Source: a virus
Taxonomy: Duplodnaviria > Heunggongvirae > Uroviricota > Caudoviricetes
Reading direction: 5' to 3' (one strand)
DNA length: 5,541 nucleotides
IMG/VR virus record: IMGVR_UViG_2579778899_000001
Span: 1-5,541 of that record
Position numbers and translations under genes: made by a program. The first letter of the stretch is position 1. Each line of letters starts with the position of its first letter. Below, piece after piece: positions 2 through 5,541 of the stretch. The notes under the pieces were generated by a model. The model did no database searches and was not told where the DNA came from. It saw nothing but the letters and a program-made list of their open reading frames with translations.

Positions 2-154
2 ATCAGCCTGATGCTGACCGAGCGAACGCTGGTCAGTGAGGTGGACGGCGCACTGCATGTGAAGAATATCCCGGAACCCCCGCCGCCGGAGCCGGTCACC
101 CGCCCGATGGAGCTTTATATCAATGGCGAACTGGTGAGCAAGTGGGATGAATGA
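2..154 (+). CDS. 3' end of a tail completion protein gene (gpR-like), 5'-truncated by the window edge
   Basis: Frame 2 is open from the window start to TGA at 152-154 (…PEPPPPEPVTRPMELYINGELVSKWDE*). High-GC codon usage matches the downstream structural genes. Its stop overlaps the start of the next gene (ATGAATGA), as expected for coupled late genes. Assignment to gpR rests on synteny with P2 (R precedes S), not on recognised sequence. Confidence 0.5.
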   Translation: MSLMLTERTLVSEVDGALHVKNIPEPPPPEPVTRPMELYINGELVSKWDE

Positions 155-599
155 GTTTAAGCGTTTTGAAGACCGGCTGACCGGACTGATTGAGTCGCTG
201 TCACCGTCAGGGCGTCGGCGGCTGAGTGCAGAGCTGGCGAAGCGTCTGCGGCAGAGTCAGCAGCGTCGGGTGATGGCACAGAAAGCCCCGGACGGCACAC
301 CCTACGCGCCACGCCAGCAGCAGAGCGCCAGAAAAAAGACCGGTCGTGTTAAGCGAAAAATGTTTGCGAAACTTATCACCAGTCGTTTTTTGCATATCCG
401 CGCCAGCCCGGAACAGGCATCAATGGAATTTTACGGCGGGAAGTCGCCGAAAATCGCCAGTGTGCATCAGTTCGGTCTGTCGGAAGAAACCCGGAAAGAC
501 GGTAAGAAAATTGATTATCCGGCGCGTCCTCTGCTCAGCTTTACCGGTGAGGATGTGCAGATGATTGAAGAGATTATCCTGACTCACCTTGAGCGTTAG
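147..599 (+). CDS. S: tail completion / virion morphogenesis protein gpS
   Basis: 150-aa ORF, the size I recall for P2 gpS. The basic N-terminal region (RRRLSAELAKRLRQSQQRRV) and overall sequence look like the P2 gpS family. The start overlaps the upstream stop by 8 nt. GC-rich coding composition. Confidence 0.8.
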   Translation: MNEFKRFEDRLTGLIESLSPSGRRRLSAELAKRLRQSQQRRVMAQKAPDGTPYAPRQQQSARKKTGRVKRKMFAKLITSRFLHIRASPEQASMEFYGGKSPKIASVHQFGLSEETRKDGKKIDYPARPLLSFTGEDVQMIEEIILTHLER

Positions 600-629
600 T
601 TTTATCCAGGCAGAGGCTGATGCGCAATT

Positions 630-664
630 AAACATTGAGCGGCCATGCTGGTCGCTCAATGTTT
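630..664. terminator. Perfect inverted repeat (12-bp stem AAACATTGAGCG / CGCTCAATGTTT, 11-nt loop) between convergent genes; candidate bidirectional terminator
   Basis: Read directly: 630-641 is the exact reverse complement of 653-664. It lies 31 nt past the gpS stop and 7 nt past the minus-strand cargo gene stop. T-runs follow on both strands (TTTAATT on minus, TTTATGAGTGATTTTTATTT on plus), but neither is a clean U-tract. Confidence 0.4.
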
Positions 665-670
665 AGAGGT

Positions 671-1456
671 TTATGAGTGATTTTTATTTGATGCTTTGTA
701 TTCTAAAACCTTCTTATTGGCGTAAAAGAATTTTGTATATGACAGGAATATAACCAGACCTGAAGTGAAATAGACGAGGGATAGTATTAATAATGCTTTT
801 TTGTGACTGTTATTATCTTTAATCTCCTGGCTTAACCATTCGGAGTCCTCCTCGTTTAGCTGTAAGAGCTTATTGCAGGCGATCTCAGGAAGTGTGTCTT
901 TTATAAATACGTTTTGCAGTCTCTTGCAATCGGCAAGGCTATAAGTTTTATTAAATTCAACTGCTTTATTTTTGAAGGATAAAAGAACTTTGTCACTATA
1001 AACATAGTACATCATGTTTTTATATGGTATGCCTATGGCATCCCTTACTATAACGGATTGTTCGTTGTGTATGTAACATGCGAGGAGAATGTAAAAAATA
1101 CTGGCCAGAATTACAATTATTGTTTTAATTATGTGTGGTGGTTTTGTTATGTCACCCCAGATGCGAGTAAGGAAAAAATACGATGTTTTTAGTTTTCCAT
1201 CAATCAGTCCCTGCTGTATCATTCTCACATTTTCAATGCCTGATACATTGATTCCATTAATTATTTTAAATAGTTGAATGTCGCGCCACTTGCGGTCAAG
1301 TCTTTTTAATTTTTTGTCTGAATATCCAAAATTGAAATAATGTGCAATAAGCCTCATAAGGTTACTTTTACCAAAGCTAAAAAATGCTAATACTGCAAAG
1401 CTACAAAGGAAAAAAACGATTAGCCCCCACACATTAGTCACATTATAGCTGACCAT
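671..1456 (-). CDS. hypothetical 261-aa integral membrane protein on an AT-rich cargo island in the S-V intergenic position (orf30-like position of P2); function unknown
   Basis: Uninterrupted 786-nt ORF filling the whole AT-rich island. Strong SD (AAGGAG) about 6 nt upstream of the ATG at 1456 on the minus strand. AT-biased codons with K/N/I/F/Y-rich protein. Three hydrophobic segments of about 20 aa (residues ~9-28, ~108-129, ~221-240; nt ~1373-1432, ~1070-1135, ~737-796) separated by Lys/Arg-rich loops. No catalytic motif recognised. Confidence 0.8.
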   Translation of the reverse strand: MVSYNVTNVWGLIVFFLCSFAVLAFFSFGKSNLMRLIAHYFNFGYSDKKLKRLDRKWRDIQLFKIINGINVSGIENVRMIQQGLIDGKLKTSYFFLTRIWGDITKPPHIIKTIIVILASIFYILLACYIHNEQSVIVRDAIGIPYKNMMYYVYSDKVLLSFKNKAVEFNKTYSLADCKRLQNVFIKDTLPEIACNKLLQLNEEDSEWLSQEIKDNNSHKKALLILSLVYFTSGLVIFLSYTKFFYANKKVLEYKASNKNHS

Positions 1457-1539
1457 TACGCTCTCCTTGAATGTTGTCTGGTAGTTCTACAAATGAATCC
1501 AGATAGCATAACTTTTATATATTGTGCAATCTCACATGC
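1457..1539. promoter_or_regulatory. 83-bp divergent control region between the cargo gene (-) and gpV (+); contains the cargo gene RBS and presumably the late tail-operon promoter (P_V equivalent)
   Basis: Cargo RBS (CTCCTT on plus = AAGGAG on minus) at 1462-1467. Candidate -10 TATATT at 1518-1523 on the plus strand upstream of the V ATG at 1540, with no good -35, as typical for activator-dependent late promoters. Imperfect TGT…ACA dyad at 1472-1491 (spacing 14 or 11, not the N12 I recall for Ogr-type sites). Minus-strand TTGCAC (-35-like, plus coordinates 1523-1528) could serve the cargo gene. All calls are by eye. Confidence 0.3.
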
Positions 1540-2181
1540 ATGAACACTCTCGCAAATATTCAGGAACTCGCGCGCGCACTGCGCAACATGATTCGCACCG
1601 GCATTATCGTCGAAACCGACCTTAACGCCGGTCGCTGCCGTGTGCAGACCGGCGGCATGTGCACTGACTGGCTTCAGTGGCTGACCCATCGTGCCGGTCG
1701 TTCGCGCACATGGTGGGCACCTTCCGTGGGGGAGCAGGTGCTGATTCTGGCCGTGGGCGGTGAACTCGACACGGCGTTCGTTCTGCCGGGGATTTATTCC
1801 GGCGATAACCCCGCGCCGTCTGCGTCGGCGGATGCCCTGCATATCCGTTTCCCTGACGGGGCGGTGATTGAATATGAACCCGAAACCAGTGCACTCACGG
1901 TAAGCGGAATTAAAACAGCCAGCGTGACGGCTTCTGATTCTGTTACTGCCACGGTGCCGGTGGTCATGGTGAAAGCATCAACCCGCGTCACCCTGGACAC
2001 ACCGGAGGTGGTCTGCACCAACAGGCTGATTACCGGCACGCTGGAAGTGCAGAAGGGCGGGAAGATGCACGGCAACATCGAGCATACCGACGGGAAATTC
2101 ACTTCTAACGGCGTTCAGGTGGATGACCACGGTCACGGTGGTGTTAAGTCAGGTGACAACTGGACGCAGGGGACAAAATGA
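1540..2181 (+). CDS. V: baseplate central spike protein gpV
   Basis: The ORF track opens at a TTG at 1522; the first ATG is at 1540 (MNTLANIQELARAL…), giving 213 aa, close to the ~211 aa I recall for P2 gpV. His-rich C-terminal apex (…HGNIEHTDG…DDHGHGG…) is typical of spike tips. The stop overlaps the W start (ATGA). Confidence 0.8.
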   Translation: MNTLANIQELARALRNMIRTGIIVETDLNAGRCRVQTGGMCTDWLQWLTHRAGRSRTWWAPSVGEQVLILAVGGELDTAFVLPGIYSGDNPAPSASADALHIRFPDGAVIEYEPETSALTVSGIKTASVTASDSVTATVPVVMVKASTRVTLDTPEVVCTNRLITGTLEVQKGGKMHGNIEHTDGKFTSNGVQVDDHGHGGVKSGDNWTQGTK

Positions 2182-2525
2182 CAGCGCGTTATCTCGGAAT
2201 GAATCGCAGTGATGGCCTGACTGTCACTGACCTTGAGCATATCAGCCAGAGTATCGGCGATATCCTGCGCACGCCGGTCGGCTCACGGGTGATGCGTCGT
2301 GATTACGGCTCGTTGCTGGCGTCAATGATTGACCAGCCGCAGACCCCGGCGCTTGAGTTGCAGATTAAGGTCGCCTGTTACATGGCGGTGCTGAAATGGG
2401 AACCCCGCGTCACCCTGTCATCCGTTACCACGGCGCGCAGCTTTGACGGGCGAATGACGGTCACGTTAACCGGCCAGCACAACGACACCGGCCAGCCACT
2501 TTCATTAACCATCCCTGTGAGTTGA
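2178..2525 (+). CDS. W: baseplate wedge protein gpW (T4 gp25-like)
   Basis: 115 aa, the size I recall for P2 gpW. SD AGGGGA 4 nt upstream of the ATG. Position immediately after V and before J. Sequence looks like the GPW/gp25 family. Confidence 0.8.
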   Translation: MTARYLGMNRSDGLTVTDLEHISQSIGDILRTPVGSRVMRRDYGSLLASMIDQPQTPALELQIKVACYMAVLKWEPRVTLSSVTTARSFDGRMTVTLTGQHNDTGQPLSLTIPVS

Positions 2526-2529
2526 AACC

Positions 2530-3438
2530 ATGCCGATTATCGACCTGAACCAGCTACCCGCACCGGATGTGGTCGAGGAGCTGGACTTTGAAACCATTCT
2601 TGCCGAACGCAAGGCGACACTGATTTCCCTTTACCCGGAAGACCAGCAGGAGGCGGTCGCCCGTACCCTGACGCTGGAATCCGAGCCTCTCGTCAAACTG
2701 CTGGAGGAAAATGCGTATCGCGAGCTTATCTGGCGTCAGCGTGTGAATGAGGCTGCACGGGCGGTGATGCTGGCCTGTGCAGCCGGTAATGACCTTGATG
2801 TGATTGGTGCCAATTACAACACCACGCGCCTGACTATCACCCCGGCAGATGATTCGACTATCCCGCCGACACCGGCAGTGATGGAGTCTGACACCGATTA
2901 TCGTCTGCGTATTCAGCAGGCGTTTGAAGGCTTAAGCGTCGCCGGGTCGGTGGGAGCCTATCAGTATCATGGTCGCAGTGCCGACGGGCGTGTCGCGGAT
3001 ATCTCTGTCACCAGTCCGTCTCCGGCCTGTGTCACCATCTCTGTGCTGTCACGTGAAAATAACGGTGTGGCATCTGAAGACCTGCTGGCTGTGGTGCGCA
3101 ACGCCCTGAATGGCGAGGACGTCAGACCGGTGGCCGACCGTGTGACCGTGCAGTCTGCCGCCATCGTTGAATACCAGATAAATGCCATGCTTTACCTTTA
3201 CCCTGGCCCCAAAAGCGAGCCCATTCGCGCTGCCGCCGTGAAAAAACTGGAAGCGTATATCACGGCACAGCACCGGCTGGGGCGCGACATCCGACTGTCT
3301 GCCATTTATGCCGCTTTGCATGTGGAAGGCGTGCAGCGTGTCGAACTGGCTGCACCGCTGGCCGACATCGTGCTCAACAGTACGCAGGCGTCTTTCTGTA
3401 CCGAATACCGCGTCGTGACCGGAGGCTCGGATGAGTGA
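2530..3438 (+). CDS. J: baseplate assembly protein gpJ (T4 gp6-like)
   Basis: 302 aa, the size I recall for P2 gpJ. Starts 4 nt after the W stop. Its stop overlaps the I start (ATGAGTGA). Confidence 0.8.
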   Translation: MPIIDLNQLPAPDVVEELDFETILAERKATLISLYPEDQQEAVARTLTLESEPLVKLLEENAYRELIWRQRVNEAARAVMLACAAGNDLDVIGANYNTTRLTITPADDSTIPPTPAVMESDTDYRLRIQQAFEGLSVAGSVGAYQYHGRSADGRVADISVTSPSPACVTISVLSRENNGVASEDLLAVVRNALNGEDVRPVADRVTVQSAAIVEYQINAMLYLYPGPKSEPIRAAAVKKLEAYITAQHRLGRDIRLSAIYAALHVEGVQRVELAAPLADIVLNSTQASFCTEYRVVTGGSDE

Positions 3439-3971: not shown

Positions 3972-5531
3972 ATGAGCACAAAATTCAAAACCGTTATCAC
4001 CACTGCCGGTGCAGCAAAGCTGGCAGCGGCAACCGCACCGGGAGGGCGGAAGGTCAACATTACCACGATGGCCGTCGGGGATGGCGGTGGTAAATTGCCT
4101 GTCCCGGATGCCGGACAGACCGGGCTTATCCACGAAGTCTGGCGACATGCGCTGAACAAAATCAGCCAGGACAAACGAAACAGTAATTATATTATCGCAG
4201 AGCTGGTTATTCCGCCGGAGGTGGGCGGTTTCTGGATGCGTGAACTTGGCCTGTACGATGATGCGGGAACGCTAATTGCCGTGGCGAACATGGCCGAAAG
4301 TTATAAGCCAGCCCTTGCCGAAGGCTCAGGGCGTTCGCAGACCTGCCGCATGGTCATCATCGTCAGCAGTGTGGCCTCAGTGGAGCTGACCATTGACACC
4401 ACAACGGTGATGGCAACGCAGGATTACGTTGATGACAAAATTGCAGAACATGAACAGTCACGACGTCACCCTGACGCCTCGCTGACCGCAAAAGGTTTTA
4501 CTCAGTTAAGCAGTGCGACCAACAGCACGTCTGAAACACTGGCCGCAACGCCGAAAGCGGTAAAGGCCGCGTATGACCTTGCTAACGGGAAATATACCGC
4601 ACAGGACGCCACCATAGCGCGAAAAGGCCTTGTCCAGCTCAGTAGTGCGACCAACAGCACGTCTGAAACGCTCGCCGCAACACCAAAAGCCGTTAAGACG
4701 GTAATGGATGAAACGAACAAGAAAGCGCCATTAAACAGCCCTGCACTGACCGGAACGCCAACGACGCCAACTGCGCGACAGGGAACGAATAATACTCAGA
4801 TCGCAAACACGGCTTTCGTTATGGCCGCGATTGCCGCCCTTGTAGACTCGTCGCCTGACGCACTGAATACGCTGAACGAGCTGGCGGCGGCGCTGGGCAA
4901 TGACCCGAATTTTGCTACCACCATGACTAATGCGCTTGCGGGTAAGCAACCGAAAGATGCCACTTTGACGGCGCTGGCGGGGCTTGCTACTGCGGCAGAC
5001 AGGTTTCCGTATTTTACGGGGAATGATGTTGCCAGCCTGGCGACCCTGACAAAAGTCGGGCGGGATATTCTGGCTAAATCGACCGTTGCCGCCGTTATCG
5101 AATATCTCGGTTTACAGGAAACGGTAAACCGAGCCGGGAACGCCGTGCAAAAAAATGGCGATACCTTGTCCGGTGGACTTACTTTTGAAAACGACTCAAT
5201 CCTTGCCTGGATTCGAAATACTGACTGGGCGAAGATTGGATTTAAAAATGATGCCGATGGTGACACTGATTCATACATGTGGTTTGAAACGGGGGATAAC
5301 GGCAATGAATATTTCAAATGGAGAAGTCGCCAGAGCACCACAACAAAAGACCTGATGAATCTTAAATGGGATGCTCTGTATGTTCTTGTTAAAGCCCTTT
5401 TCAGCAGTGAAGTAAAAATATCTACAGTCAATGCGCTGAGGATATTTAATTCATCTTTTGGTGCTATTTTTCGCCGTTTGCGTATTTTCATGAAAGGAGA
5501 TCACTCAATAACTTCCATCGAGATCGGGTAA
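3972..5531 (+). CDS. H: tail fibre protein gpH-like (519 aa), with a compositionally distinct low-GC C-terminal portion
   Basis: SD GAGGA upstream of the ATG at 3972. Two copies of the tail-fibre repeat motif QLSSATNSTSETLAATPKAVK. Ala/Thr/Asn-rich shaft-like sequence. A conserved-looking block (WAKIGFKNDADGDTDSYMWFETGDNGNEYFKW) is followed by an AT-rich terminal segment. Shorter than the ~669 aa I recall for P2 H. Confidence 0.75.
   Translation: MSTKFKTVITTAGAAKLAAATAPGGRKVNITTMAVGDGGGKLPVPDAGQTGLIHEVWRHALNKISQDKRNSNYIIAELVIPPEVGGFWMRELGLYDDAGTLIAVANMAESYKPALAEGSGRSQTCRMVIIVSSVASVELTIDTTTVMATQDYVDDKIAEHEQSRRHPDASLTAKGFTQLSSATNSTSETLAATPKAVKAAYDLANGKYTAQDATIARKGLVQLSSATNSTSETLAATPKAVKTVMDETNKKAPLNSPALTGTPTTPTARQGTNNTQIANTAFVMAAIAALVDSSPDALNTLNELAAALGNDPNFATTMTNALAGKQPKDATLTALAGLATAADRFPYFTGNDVASLATLTKVGRDILAKSTVAAVIEYLGLQETVNRAGNAVQKNGDTLSGGLTFENDSILAWIRNTDWAKIGFKNDADGDTDSYMWFETGDNGNEYFKWRSRQSTTTKDLMNLKWDALYVLVKALFSSEVKISTVNALRIFNSSFGAIFRRLRIFMKGDHSITSIEIG
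4505..4697 (+). repeat. Imperfect direct repeat (about 60 nt per copy, 132-nt period) inside the tail-fibre gene, encoding two identical 19-aa fibre-repeat motifs
   Basis: Copies at ~4505-4565 and ~4637-4697 (AGTGCGACCAACAGCACGTCTGAAAC…). Amino-acid sequence is identical (SSATNSTSETLAATPKAVK), with mostly synonymous nucleotide differences. Confidence 0.7.
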
Positions 5532-5541
5532 TAACATTTGA

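What the first reader, a model, noticed from the sequence alone, without database searches (positions are those of the whole stretch)
671..1456. AT-rich single-gene cargo island between tail genes S and V encoding an uncharacterised three-TM membrane protein
A roughly 0.85 kb block of about one-third GC interrupts a late operon that is otherwise well over half GC. It holds exactly one gene, on the opposite strand, with its own strong RBS and AT-type codon usage, the classic signature of a horizontally acquired moron. By the positive-inside rule the protein has a periplasmic N-terminus, a basic cytoplasmic loop (res ~30-107), a roughly 90-aa predicted periplasmic domain (res ~130-220, with the acidic patch LNEEDSEWLSQE) and a Lys-rich cytoplasmic tail. 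I recognise no known enzyme or defence-family motif. P2-like prophages are known to carry anti-phage cargo at moron hotspots (old/tin and Z/fun), and to my recollection P2 has an uncharacterised AT-rich orf30 at this S-V position. A membrane protein here is a plausible superinfection-exclusion, abortive-infection or envelope-modifying factor. The function is inferred, not shown.
Basis: partly seen in the sequence, partly recalled or inferred. Interest (0 to 1): 0.85.

Follow-up and report, generated by a model that had tools for sequence, protein, structure and literature searches.

The report
Phage P2 orf30 membrane-protein cargo gene
This is the long-annotated but never characterised accessory gene orf30 of phage P2, an AT-rich cassette between tail genes S and V that encodes a three-pass inner-membrane protein, probably a prophage-borne envelope or anti-phage factor; it is a known feature whose function is still open.

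Summary
Window 600-1539 is about 34% GC inside tail operons of 55-60% GC, and it holds one intact 261-aa ORF (671-1456, minus strand) with a strong ribosome-binding site. It is not new: the block is 99.6% identical to P2 (AF063097), where the ORF is annotated "orf30, nonessential". The S-V gap is a real cargo slot. In 77 P2-like loci it was empty in 47 (69 nt), held orf30 in 18, and held other AT-rich cargo in 12, including AAA+TIR, RelA/SpoT, DUF4062 and HNH-like genes. orf30 occurs in 464 of 5426 complete E. coli genomes, almost always intact, with dN/dS 0.44. New here: Orf30 is a remote relative of Pfam DUF6216 (hhalign probability 99.85%). Very divergent relatives (22-34% identity) occupy the same antisense position next to gene V in prophages of Yersinia, Pectobacterium, Sodalis and others. 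BL21(DE3) has a PGAP-named DUF6216 protein in this slot, sharing the C-terminal module. A lone copy persists at a P2 attachment site in Enterobacter cloacae. The predicted fold (pLDDT 84) has no specific structural match. Function remains inferred; I favour envelope-level phage exclusion. Interest is moderate to low because the feature is already annotated.

The parts
147..599 (+). Tail completion gene S (left flank of the slot; last gene of the O late operon)
   Evidence: ORF. Annotated gpS in AF063097 at the matching position. GC 0.545.
600..1539 (.). AT-rich orf30 cassette. It replaces the whole S-V intergenic region, which is 69 nt in 'empty' P2-like prophages
   Evidence: GC profile. 99.6% identical to P2 9368-10298. 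Comparison of filled and empty S-V junctions.
629..665 (.). Strong hairpin (core arms 631-641 and 653-663) between the converging ends of S and orf30. Candidate bidirectional terminator
   Evidence: Minimum free energy -27.1 kcal/mol on the + strand and -22.4 on the - strand. P2 annotation: 'putative rho-independent terminator for O operon'. The strict terminator scan did not call it, because it has no clean T-run.
671..1456 (-). orf30 coding sequence: 261 aa, a predicted three-TM inner-membrane protein and remote DUF6216 relative
   Evidence: (phrog_2407, E 8.6e-149).
1463..1468 (-). Ribosome-binding site AAGGAG, 6 nt before the ATG
   Evidence: Sequence read on the minus strand.
1471..1498 (+). 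Ogr/Delta activator-binding site of the late promoter pV. It starts only 14 nt from the orf30 start codon. This back-to-back arrangement is conserved in divergent family members
   Evidence: AF063097 annotation mapped to the window. The ACACAACA half-site is conserved upstream of orf30-like genes in L006, L008, L093 and L096.
1540..2181 (+). Baseplate spike gene V (right flank of the slot; first gene of the V late operon)

Best explanation
**Shown.** The feature is phage P2's accessory gene orf30 in its AT-rich cassette. The cassette comprises a hairpin, the gene, and its own version of the pV promoter region. It occupies the S-V cargo slot of a P2-type prophage or phage of E. coli. The gene is real and under purifying selection. 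It encodes an integral inner-membrane protein with:
- three poorly conserved TM helices;
- an N-terminus predicted to face the periplasm;
- a conserved ~80-aa helical cytoplasmic loop (motif D-x-Q-L-F-[RK]-x2-N-G-[IV]-N-V-x4-D-A);
- a ~90-aa periplasmic alpha/beta domain with a conserved Cys pair (C177/C194);
- a basic cytoplasmic tail.

It is a remote member of the DUF6216 superfamily. In every informative context I examined, members of this family lay in or beside P2-like prophages, or remnants of them, across Enterobacterales.

**Inferred mechanism (my best guess, about 0.35-0.4).** The gene is expressed from the prophage independently of the late operons, and is probably held low by H-NS because it is AT-rich. 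The protein sits in the inner membrane and excludes incoming phages at the envelope. The disulfide-stabilised periplasmic domain would engage an incoming phage's ejection machinery or a host inner-membrane entry factor. The conserved cytoplasmic domain would hold a conserved host partner. This would work like a superinfection-exclusion protein rather than as an enzyme or a pore.

**On the confidence figure.** The identity part is essentially certain. The figure of 0.4 refers to the inferred function.
For: **Identity**
-.

**Real, selected gene**
- It is present in 464 of 5426 E. coli genomes and intact in 461 of them.
- dN/dS is 0.44 overall, 0.30 in the cytoplasmic loop and 0.22 in the periplasmic domain.

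**Cargo slot**
- Of 77 P2-like loci, 47 were empty, 18 held orf30 and 12 held other AT-rich cargo.
- Other cargo includes AAA+TIR_2 (PADLOC candidate PDC-S59, 1.5e-19), RelA_SpoT (PDC-S33, 1e-16) and DUF4062.
- In E. coli genomes, 1024 have the contiguous empty junction and 464 have orf30.

**Family tied to the slot**
- P0006, P0008, P0026, P0023, P0030 and P0021 all sit antisense and adjacent to V. P0033 abuts S on a short contig.
- These copies are 22-34% identical to Orf30, while V, W, J and I are 56-82% identical in the same phages. All copies are 30-35% GC.

**Value to the host independent of the phage**
- A lone copy sits at the cyaR/trhP-yegS P2 attachment site in Enterobacter cloacae, with the same neighbourhood in all 24 contigs read.
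- Two divergent paralogues lie in tandem in a decayed prophage.
- One member lies beside the portal gene, on the side of the established old/tin defence hotspot.

**Architecture**
- AlphaFold2 model with pLDDT 84 and pTM 0.75.
- C177 is present in 26 of 29 members and C194 in 29 of 29. The charge pattern holds family-wide. TM2 and TM3 have no column conserved at 60% or more. This argues for anchor helices plus two functional soluble domains, not a pore.

**DUF6216 link**
- P0030 scores 28.9 bits against a gathering cut-off of 27.3, along its full length.
- hhalign of the Orf30 group against the DUF6216-positive members gives 99.85% probability and E 1e-30.
- The BL21(DE3) S-V gene is annotated 'DUF6216 family protein'.
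Against: - No experiment or paper in the searchable library assigns any phenotype to orf30.
- The three classic exclusion phenotypes of P2 lysogens map to old, tin and Z/fun, not to orf30 (established knowledge; PMC9122126; 10.1101/2024.10.15.618418).
- There is no homology to any defence model or to any known exclusion protein. PHROG 2407 is 'unknown function'.
- No sigma-70-like promoter is detectable upstream, so expression in the lysogen is unproven.
- The best-conserved part is cytoplasmic. That fits a sensor or partner-binding role as well as, or better than, a purely periplasmic block.
- Guilt by association with hotspot neighbours is weak evidence. About 60-65% of P2-like prophages carry nothing in this slot.
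Confidence: 0.4

Rival explanations
1. Abortive-infection or sensor protein. The conserved cytoplasmic domain would detect a phage product or a cytoplasmic perturbation. Alternatively the periplasmic domain would detect envelope breach. The protein would then oligomerise to depolarise or otherwise poison the membrane, killing the infected cell before progeny are made.
For: - The most conserved region is the cytoplasmic loop: 19 of 80 columns are at least 60% conserved, and D59, Q61, G68, N70 and D76 are nearly invariant.
- The other cargos at the same slot are typical abortive-infection-type effectors: TIR, RelA/SpoT and HNH-like.
- AT-rich, probably H-NS-restrained expression would suit a toxic gene.
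Against: - The TM helices are the least conserved parts and carry no conserved polar or charged residues. This is unexpected for a pore or channel.
- There is no enzymatic or known effector domain.
- It is a single-gene cassette with no partner sensor or antitoxin gene.
- The gene is stably carried and intact in 8.5% of E. coli genomes and in all E. cloacae contigs read, with no linked neutraliser.
Confidence: 0.2
2. A lysogenic-conversion factor unrelated to phage defence. This would be an envelope protein that benefits the host in another way. Examples are immunity to membrane-targeting toxins (pore-forming bacteriocins, tailocins, contact-dependent toxins), envelope-stress tolerance, or host-colonisation fitness.
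For: - The gene is retained as a lone copy after prophage decay at the cyaR attachment site in Enterobacter cloacae.
- Two diverged paralogues lie in tandem in L102, which resembles arrays of orphan immunity genes.
- The size and three-TM layout recall immunity proteins of pore-forming colicins (established knowledge). One member gave a non-significant hit to the colicin K immunity family, E 0.11.
- P0017 lies next to a DsbA-like gene.
Against: - No toxin gene is linked in any context examined.
- Every context that could be assigned lay in or beside a P2-like phage or its remnant. This is more easily explained by inter-phage conflict.
- The only similarity to an immunity family is the non-significant colicin K hit at E 0.11, and there is no match to any known virulence family.
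Confidence: 0.2
3. An accessory function in the P2 life cycle itself. Examples are modulating lysis or DNA ejection, protecting progeny from adsorbing to lysing cells, or interfering with the satellite P4. This would explain why the gene is always placed back-to-back with the late promoter of spike gene V.
For: - The divergent arrangement is strictly conserved. The start codon lies 82-165 nt from the V start, with the activator half-site ACACAACA just upstream, in phages of several genera.
- P2 annotation calls the gene nonessential, not functionless.
Against: - The gene is on the opposite strand to both late operons.
- A mirror-image activator-dependent start would fall at about position 1428, inside the ORF (reasoning).
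- Most P2-like phages lack any gene in this slot.
- Copies survive in decayed prophages and as lone chromosomal genes, where no phage cycle exists.
- Presence of orf30 is not linked to a particular V allele.
Confidence: 0.1
4. A decaying or selfish passenger with no current function.
For: - No known domain, phenotype or detectable promoter.
- The gene is dispensable for P2.
Against: - It is intact in 461 of 464 E. coli genomes. One of 18 viral-contig copies is disrupted.
- dN/dS is well below 1 in both soluble domains.
- Architecture and key residues are conserved down to about 20% identity across genera.
Confidence: 0.03

Closest known systems
Bacteriophage P2 orf30 (AAD03281.1; PHROG 2407)
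   Same: The same gene. The cassette is 99.6% identical at nucleotide level. The protein has the same length, position, strand and flanks, with 2 substitutions.
   Different: The Orf30 protein differs only by E56K and T141I. Elsewhere the window departs from P2, in the tail-fibre gene H after about position 5478. The source is therefore a P2-type relative, not P2 itself.
Pfam DUF6216 (PF19723), including the BL21(DE3) S-V gene ECD_RS04470
   Same: - Same length class, about 250-270 aa.
- Same membrane architecture and same Cys-pair periplasmic module followed by a TM helix and a basic tail.
- Same genomic slot, antisense between S and V in P2-like prophages.
- Same low GC.
- Profile-profile probability of 99.85% between the Orf30 group and DUF6216-positive members.
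   Different: - Orf30 itself gets no hit from the Pfam model.
- The BL21 protein matches only the C-terminal part of the model (profile positions 114-265) and was not matched over the conserved cytoplasmic-loop region. hhalign against the family gave 9% probability, confined to the Cys-pair segment.
- The family has no known function, so the link names the gene without explaining it.
P2 lysogenic-conversion genes old, tin and Z/fun
   Same: They are AT-rich, nonessential, horizontally acquired single genes at variable slots of P2-like prophages (PMC3091744; PMC9122126; 10.1101/2024.10.15.618418).
   Different: They are unrelated proteins with demonstrated exclusion phenotypes (lambda, T-even phages, T5). 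They are soluble or enzymatic rather than integral-membrane proteins. orf30 has no phenotype on record.
Inner-membrane superinfection-exclusion proteins (T4 Imm, P22 SieA, HK97 gp15)
   Same: They are phage-encoded, single-gene, non-enzymatic inner-membrane proteins. They act at the envelope and are carried as accessory genes (established knowledge).
   Different: - No sequence or fold similarity was detected.
- Orf30 is larger and has a conserved cytoplasmic domain that these proteins lack.
- Activity is untested.
Immunity proteins of pore-forming colicins (3-4 TM inner-membrane proteins)
   Same: Multi-pass inner-membrane proteins without enzymatic domains. Diverged copies can be stacked in tandem, as in L102.
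   Different: - No linked toxin gene.
- No significant similarity; the best hit is E 0.11 for one member.
- Orf30 has two sizeable soluble domains.

Membership tests
P2 orf30 / PHROG 2407 | Full-length sequence match to P2 Orf30 | tested here: met
   99.6% nucleotide identity over 931 nt to AF063097. phrog_2407 E 8.6e-149, residues 1-261 of 261. Two amino-acid differences.
P2 orf30 / PHROG 2407 | Position between S and V, on the opposite strand to the tail genes | tested here: met
Pfam DUF6216 (PF19723) | Score at or above the Pfam gathering cut-off (27.3 bits) | tested here: not met
   Orf30 has no Pfam hit at E up to 10. Family member P0030 passes at 28.9 bits along its full length. The BL21 S-V protein passes at 44.5 bits on its C-terminal part only.
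Pfam DUF6216 (PF19723) | Homology to bona fide members by profile-profile comparison | tested here: met
   hhalign of A1 against A3: probability 99.85%, E 1.1e-30, 241 aligned columns. The Orf30 profile finds P0030 at E 9.1e-14.
Moron (autonomous accessory cassette in a phage late region) | Base composition distinct from its flanks, and absence from close relatives | tested here: met
   GC 0.34 against 0.55-0.60. A 69-nt empty gap in 47 of 77 related loci and in 1024 E. coli genomes.
Moron (autonomous accessory cassette in a phage late region) | Own terminator | tested here: inconclusive
   A strong hairpin lies at 629-665 (-27 kcal/mol) just past the stop codon. It has no clean T-run, and the strict scan did not call it.
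Moron (autonomous accessory cassette in a phage late region) | Own promoter, active in the lysogen | tested here: inconclusive
   No minus-strand sigma-70 match of at least 9 of 12 lies between 1457 and 1700. The 83-nt upstream gap is occupied by the pV late promoter. Expression data were not available.
Known anti-phage defence systems (PADLOC-DB v2) | Match to a defence-protein model | tested here: not met
   Zero families at E up to 10.
Superinfection-exclusion membrane proteins | Phage-encoded integral inner-membrane protein without an enzymatic domain | tested here: met
   Three hydrophobic helices; the family-wide charge pattern and Cys pair support N-out/C-in. No enzyme domain. This is a prediction only.
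Superinfection-exclusion membrane proteins | Blocks DNA entry or adsorption of a superinfecting phage while the cell survives | not testable with these tools
   Needs plating, adsorption and DNA-entry assays.
Superinfection-exclusion membrane proteins | Sequence or fold homology to Imm, SieA, gp15 or similar | tested here: not met
Two-component membrane abortive-infection systems (such as RexAB) | Membrane effector paired with a sensor gene in one cassette | tested here: not met
   The cassette holds a single gene.

The most novel reading that the evidence does not exclude
Orf30 and the DUF6216 proteins may be a previously unrecognised class of inner-membrane anti-phage (exclusion or sensing) proteins with a new fold. 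They would be carried mainly by P2-like phages, hard-wired back-to-back with the spike gene V. They would diversify far faster than the neighbouring baseplate genes, stay AT-rich for H-NS control, and be retained by hosts after the prophage decays, as in Enterobacter cloacae. On this reading the S-V gap would be a defence hotspot of P2-like phages, alongside the ones already described.
Probability: 0.35. Interest if true: 0.6.

Novelty: already known. Interest (0 to 1): 0.35.

Why it matters
P2 is a model phage, and orf30 is one of its few genes that still has no assigned role. It is also common: it occurs in about 8.5% of complete E. coli genomes, and it is the most frequent occupant of the S-V slot. 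If it proves to be an exclusion or defence factor, three things would follow:
- a new membrane-protein family (DUF6216) would join the anti-phage repertoire;
- the S-V gap would be established as a defence-cargo hotspot of P2-like prophages;
- the persistence of lone copies in Enterobacter cloacae and in E. coli BL21 would have an explanation.

If it has no phage phenotype, it is still a tractable example of a fast-evolving prophage envelope protein that is kept AT-rich. In either case the sequence feature itself is not a discovery.

Tried and rejected
**Searches that found nothing useful**
- Pfam, PADLOC and NCBIfam scans of Orf30 gave nothing significant.
- A profile search of the family against PDB sequences gave nothing below E 0.078.
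- Foldseek against BFVD and PDB gave no match at E up to 0.001, with TM-scores of 0.22 or less.
- The AFDB50 library was unavailable.
- The search for related loci with the 29-sequence alignment failed because the alignment has no conserved stretch to search with.
- The word-indexed protein search reached few relatives. The exhaustive HMMER search was needed.

**Ideas rejected**
- Bacteriocin-like peptides: the two ~49-aa ORFs upstream of P0016 are not hydrophobic or Gly-rich.
- K-12 relative: the K-12 remnant at the same attachment site (ogrK-yegZ-yegR) encodes no family member, with no hit better than E 0.3.
- A divergent Ogr-activated promoter for orf30: a mirror-image start 55 nt from the dyad centre would fall at about 1428, inside the ORF.
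- Linkage of orf30 to a particular V spike allele: orf30-bearing and empty loci have similar V identities.

**Dead ends in locating the BL21 prophage**
- The trhP-yegS site in BL21(DE3) is empty. The prophage lies at 872-892 kb.

**Paper I could not open**
- The preprint 10.64898/2026.09.05.749240 mentions DUF6216 but could not be opened.
- Term counts are Eco1 x26, retron x7, DUF6216 x1 and transmembrane x1. They suggest its main subject is retron Eco1 in the BL21 P2-like prophage, not the DUF6216 gene.
Full report

Yes. Sliding-window GC falls from 0.52-0.60 to 0.32-0.37 between about 600 and 1500, then returns to 0.54-0.63. The only long ORF confined to this block is 671..1456 on the minus strand (261 aa, ATG). 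The other long ORFs that reach into it run out into the GC-rich flanks. Its GC is 0.337 and its GC3 is 0.36, against GC3 0.59-0.69 for the flanking genes S, V, W, J and I.

AAGGAG lies 6 nt upstream of the ATG. An in-frame stop lies 10 codons further up, so the start is fixed.

**2. What is it?**

The block 600-1530 is 99.6% identical to bacteriophage P2 (AF063097, 9368-10298). There the ORF is annotated "orf30, nonessential". It is flanked by a putative terminator of the O operon and by the activator-binding site of the late promoter pV. The protein differs from P2 Orf30 at two positions, E56K and T141I. This exact variant occurs in E. coli assemblies. PHROGs places it in phrog_2407, unknown function.

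The papers I could read treat orf30 only as one of three sites in P2-like phages where foreign genes are found (PMC3091744), or note a different ORF at that position in phage R18C (PMC6823313). Rousset et al. 2022 (PMC9122126) and the hotspot-annotation preprint (10.1101/2024.10.15.618418) do not name the S-V slot. The 2026 NAR survey (PMC13586616) lumps everything "within the tail genes" together. No paper in the library gives orf30 a phenotype.

**3. The S-V gap is a true cargo slot.**

I fetched 80 viral contigs by the gpV protein. In the 77 that also carry S, the gap was as follows:

| S-V gap | Loci | Size | GC |
|---|---|---|---|
| Empty | 47 | 69-78 nt | about 0.59 |
| orf30 cassette | 18 | 942-943 nt | 0.34-0.37 |
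| Other AT-rich cargo | 12 | 826-1727 nt | 0.33-0.39 |

The other cargos include:
- a 508-aa AAA+TIR_2 protein (PADLOC candidate PDC-S59);
- a 366-aa RelA_SpoT protein (PDC-S33);
- a 449-aa DUF4062 protein;
- an HNH-like 251-aa protein;
- two unknowns, one of which is another membrane protein.

In 5426 complete E. coli genomes, 1569 carry P2-type S/V junction flanks. Of all genomes, 1024 have the contiguous empty junction and 464 have orf30. orf30 is thus the commonest occupant.

Junction comparison shows that the orf30 cassette replaces the entire intergenic region from the S stop to the V start. This includes the pV promoter sequence. Several other cargos instead sit between the S stop and a retained activator box.

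**4. It is a functional gene.**

orf30 covers at least 80% of its length in 461 of 464 E. coli genomes. Sixteen distinct alleles give dN/dS 0.44 overall, 0.30 in the cytoplasmic loop and 0.22 in the periplasmic domain. One of 18 viral-contig copies is disrupted.

**5. The family.**

The word-indexed search found only E. coli alleles and one Enterobacter protein. An exhaustive profile search of 1.84 billion representatives found 44 clusters, and the full-length members are 250-270 aa. A 29-sequence alignment and column counts show:
- a conserved cytoplasmic motif, D59-x-Q61-L-F-[RK]-x2-N-G68-[IV]-N70-V-x4-D76-A, then G87;
- a conserved Cys pair, C177 in 26 of 29 members and C194 in 29 of 29, followed by x-Y/K-L;
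- conserved I212, N247 and K254;
- TM helices that are the least conserved parts.

The N-terminus never carries K or R. The first loop is net basic, the 130-220 domain is net neutral, and the tail is basic. These features support an N-out/C-in topology, with the Cys-pair domain in the periplasm.

Pfam finds nothing in Orf30 itself. Ten of the 29 members give collinear sub-threshold hits to DUF6216. P0030 from Sodalis passes the gathering cut-off along its full length, 28.9 against 27.3 bits. A profile-profile comparison of the Orf30 group with the DUF6216-positive members gives 99.85% probability, E 1e-30, over 241 columns. Orf30 is therefore a remote DUF6216 relative.

**6. Where the relatives live.**

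This was the most informative result.
- P0006 (an Enterobacteriaceae isolate), P0008, P0026 (Yersinia spp.), P0023 (Pectobacterium spp.), P0030 (Sodalis) and P0021 all lie next to gene V of a P2-like prophage, on the opposite strand, exactly as in P2. P0033 abuts S on a short contig.
- In the five phages compared, the orf30-like proteins are 22-34% identical to Orf30, while V, W, J and I are 56-82% identical.
- Every copy has 30-35% GC, in flanks of 52-63%.
- The start codon always lies 82-165 nt from the V start, with the activator half-site ACACAACA just upstream.

Other placements are:
- P0038 sits beside the portal gene, on the side of the old/tin hotspot.
- P0021 and P0044 are tandem paralogues in a decayed prophage.
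- P0028 is a lone AT-rich gene at the cyaR/trhP-yegS P2 attachment site of Enterobacter cloacae. All 24 contigs read have the same neighbourhood, and the cluster spans hundreds of contigs.
- E. coli K-12 has the ogrK-yegZ-yegR remnant at that site, with no family member.
- The defective P2-like prophage of BL21(DE3) has a gene between gpS and gpV, antisense, with GC 0.33. PGAP names it "DUF6216 family protein". It matches only the C-terminal part of the Pfam model, at 44.5 bits.
- Three contexts are uninformative or non-phage: P0005, P0016 and P0017. P0017 lies next to a DsbA-like gene.

**7. Structure.**

With the 29-sequence alignment, AlphaFold2 gives pLDDT 84 and pTM 0.75. The model has:
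- TM1 within helix 6-40;
- cytoplasmic helices 48-67 and 74-86;
- TM2 within helix 109-134;
- a four-stranded sheet at 141-173;
- helices 174-198;
- a 59-residue helix (202-260) that contains TM3.

**8. Regulation.**

A strong hairpin at 629-665 lies between the converging ends of S and orf30. It probably terminates both. No sigma-70-like promoter reaches the scan threshold upstream of orf30, and the 83-nt upstream gap is the pV late promoter. How orf30 is transcribed is therefore unknown. A mirror-image activator-dependent start would fall inside the ORF, so late co-activation is unlikely.

The uniformly low GC of all family members, whatever their host phage, suggests one of two things. AT-richness may itself be maintained, for example for H-NS control. 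Alternatively, alleles may be continually exchanged from an AT-rich pool. This is inference.

A September 2026 preprint on H-NS silencing of immunity in BL21 mentions DUF6216 once, but I could not open it. Its term counts point to retron Eco1 as the main subject.

**9. How it most likely works.**

*Shown:* the identity of the gene, purifying selection, the cargo-slot context, and the family with its tie to P2-like phages.

*Predicted:* the membrane topology and the domain layout.

*Inferred:* the function. The following points lead me to favour an envelope-level phage-exclusion role, at about 0.35-0.4:
- defence-type neighbours at the same slot;
- the restriction of every assignable context to P2-like elements;
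- divergence much greater than in the flanking genes;
- tandem paralogues;
- retention after prophage decay;
- the absence of any enzymatic or pore-like feature.

On this view the periplasmic disulfide-bonded domain and the conserved cytoplasmic domain each bind a partner.

The rivals are:
- an abortive-infection or sensor protein (0.2);
- a non-phage host-benefit or toxin-immunity factor (0.2);
- a role in the P2 life cycle (0.1);
- a functionless passenger (0.03).

**10. Verdict.**

The feature is already known as P2 orf30, so novelty is low. This analysis adds the DUF6216 link, the family's fixed position beside gene V across genera, the cargo census of the S-V slot, and the domesticated copies. 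Interest is 0.35. The most novel reading is a new membrane anti-phage family marking an overlooked P2 hotspot. I give it about 0.35 probability, and it would merit about 0.6 if true.

Noticed in passing
window 3972-5541: The tail-fibre gene H ORF ends at 5531 (519 aa), against 669 aa in P2. The window matches P2-type phages only up to about 5478, and the last ~60 nt differ from nearly all E. coli and phage records. The source is therefore a P2 relative with a different or interrupted fibre C-terminus, not P2 itself. GC also falls to 0.38-0.45 over 5100-5500.
   Followed up: partly
window 1471-1542; L013 3931-4001: The annotated pV transcription start in AF063097 coincides with the A of the V start codon, which implies a leaderless or near-leaderless V mRNA. 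In 'empty' alleles the activator box starts right after the S stop codon, and a GC-rich hairpin (GCCGCCGG...CCGGCGGC) lies between the box and the V start. The orf30 cassette carries a quite different AT-rich version of this promoter region.
   Followed up: partly
L102 6001-7658: Two divergent orf30-family genes (P0021 and P0044) lie in tandem next to a truncated V-W-J' prophage remnant.
   Followed up: partly
L101 6001-6765: In Enterobacter cloacae a lone orf30-family gene (P0028, GC 0.36 in 0.57-0.58 flanks) sits immediately after cyaR, between trhP(yegQ) and yegS. This is the site that holds the P2-like remnant ogrK-yegZ in E. coli K-12. The neighbourhood is the same in all 24 contigs read.
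   Followed up: partly
L106 12499-32602 (BL21(DE3) 872.5-892.6 kb): The defective P2-like prophage of BL21(DE3) carries a 'DUF6216 family protein' antisense between gpS and gpV. It also carries a retron (St85-family reverse transcriptase plus effector) next to the portal gene. An unreadable 2026 preprint on H-NS silencing in BL21 mentions both.
   Followed up: partly
L047, L083, L086, L027/L071/L090, L017/L063/L073, L092 (S-V gaps): Alternative single-gene AT-rich cargos occupy the S-V slot. They are AAA+TIR_2 (508 aa), RelA_SpoT (366 aa), DUF4062 (449 aa), an HNH-like protein (251 aa), an unknown 268-aa protein, and a 251-aa membrane protein unrelated to Orf30.
   Followed up: partly
L003 66-752: Family member P0017 lies divergently next to a DsbA/thioredoxin-like gene on short metagenomic contigs. 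This is suggestive given the family's conserved periplasmic Cys pair.
   Followed up: no
L096 8800-10440: In a Pectobacterium P2-like prophage the S-V slot holds extra cargo besides the orf30-like gene: an ORF6N-domain protein and two small ORFs. The orf30-like gene keeps its position next to V.
   Followed up: no
L093/L095 about 2160-3410; L006 19687-20789; L099 19432-20804: Other cargo slots of the same prophages are filled. A Cupin_2 gene plus a PAS_4-GerE regulator lie between the tail-fibre assembly and sheath genes (the Z/fun slot) in Yersinia. GmrSD_N, with HEPN or SLFN-type domains, lies next to the portal gene in L006 and L099.
   Followed up: no
window about 4490-4720: The H protein contains an internal direct repeat, LSSATNSTSETLAATPKAVK, present twice. 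It coincides with strongly positive AT skew (0.29-0.50). This is probably the ordinary phage-fibre repeat.
   Followed up: no
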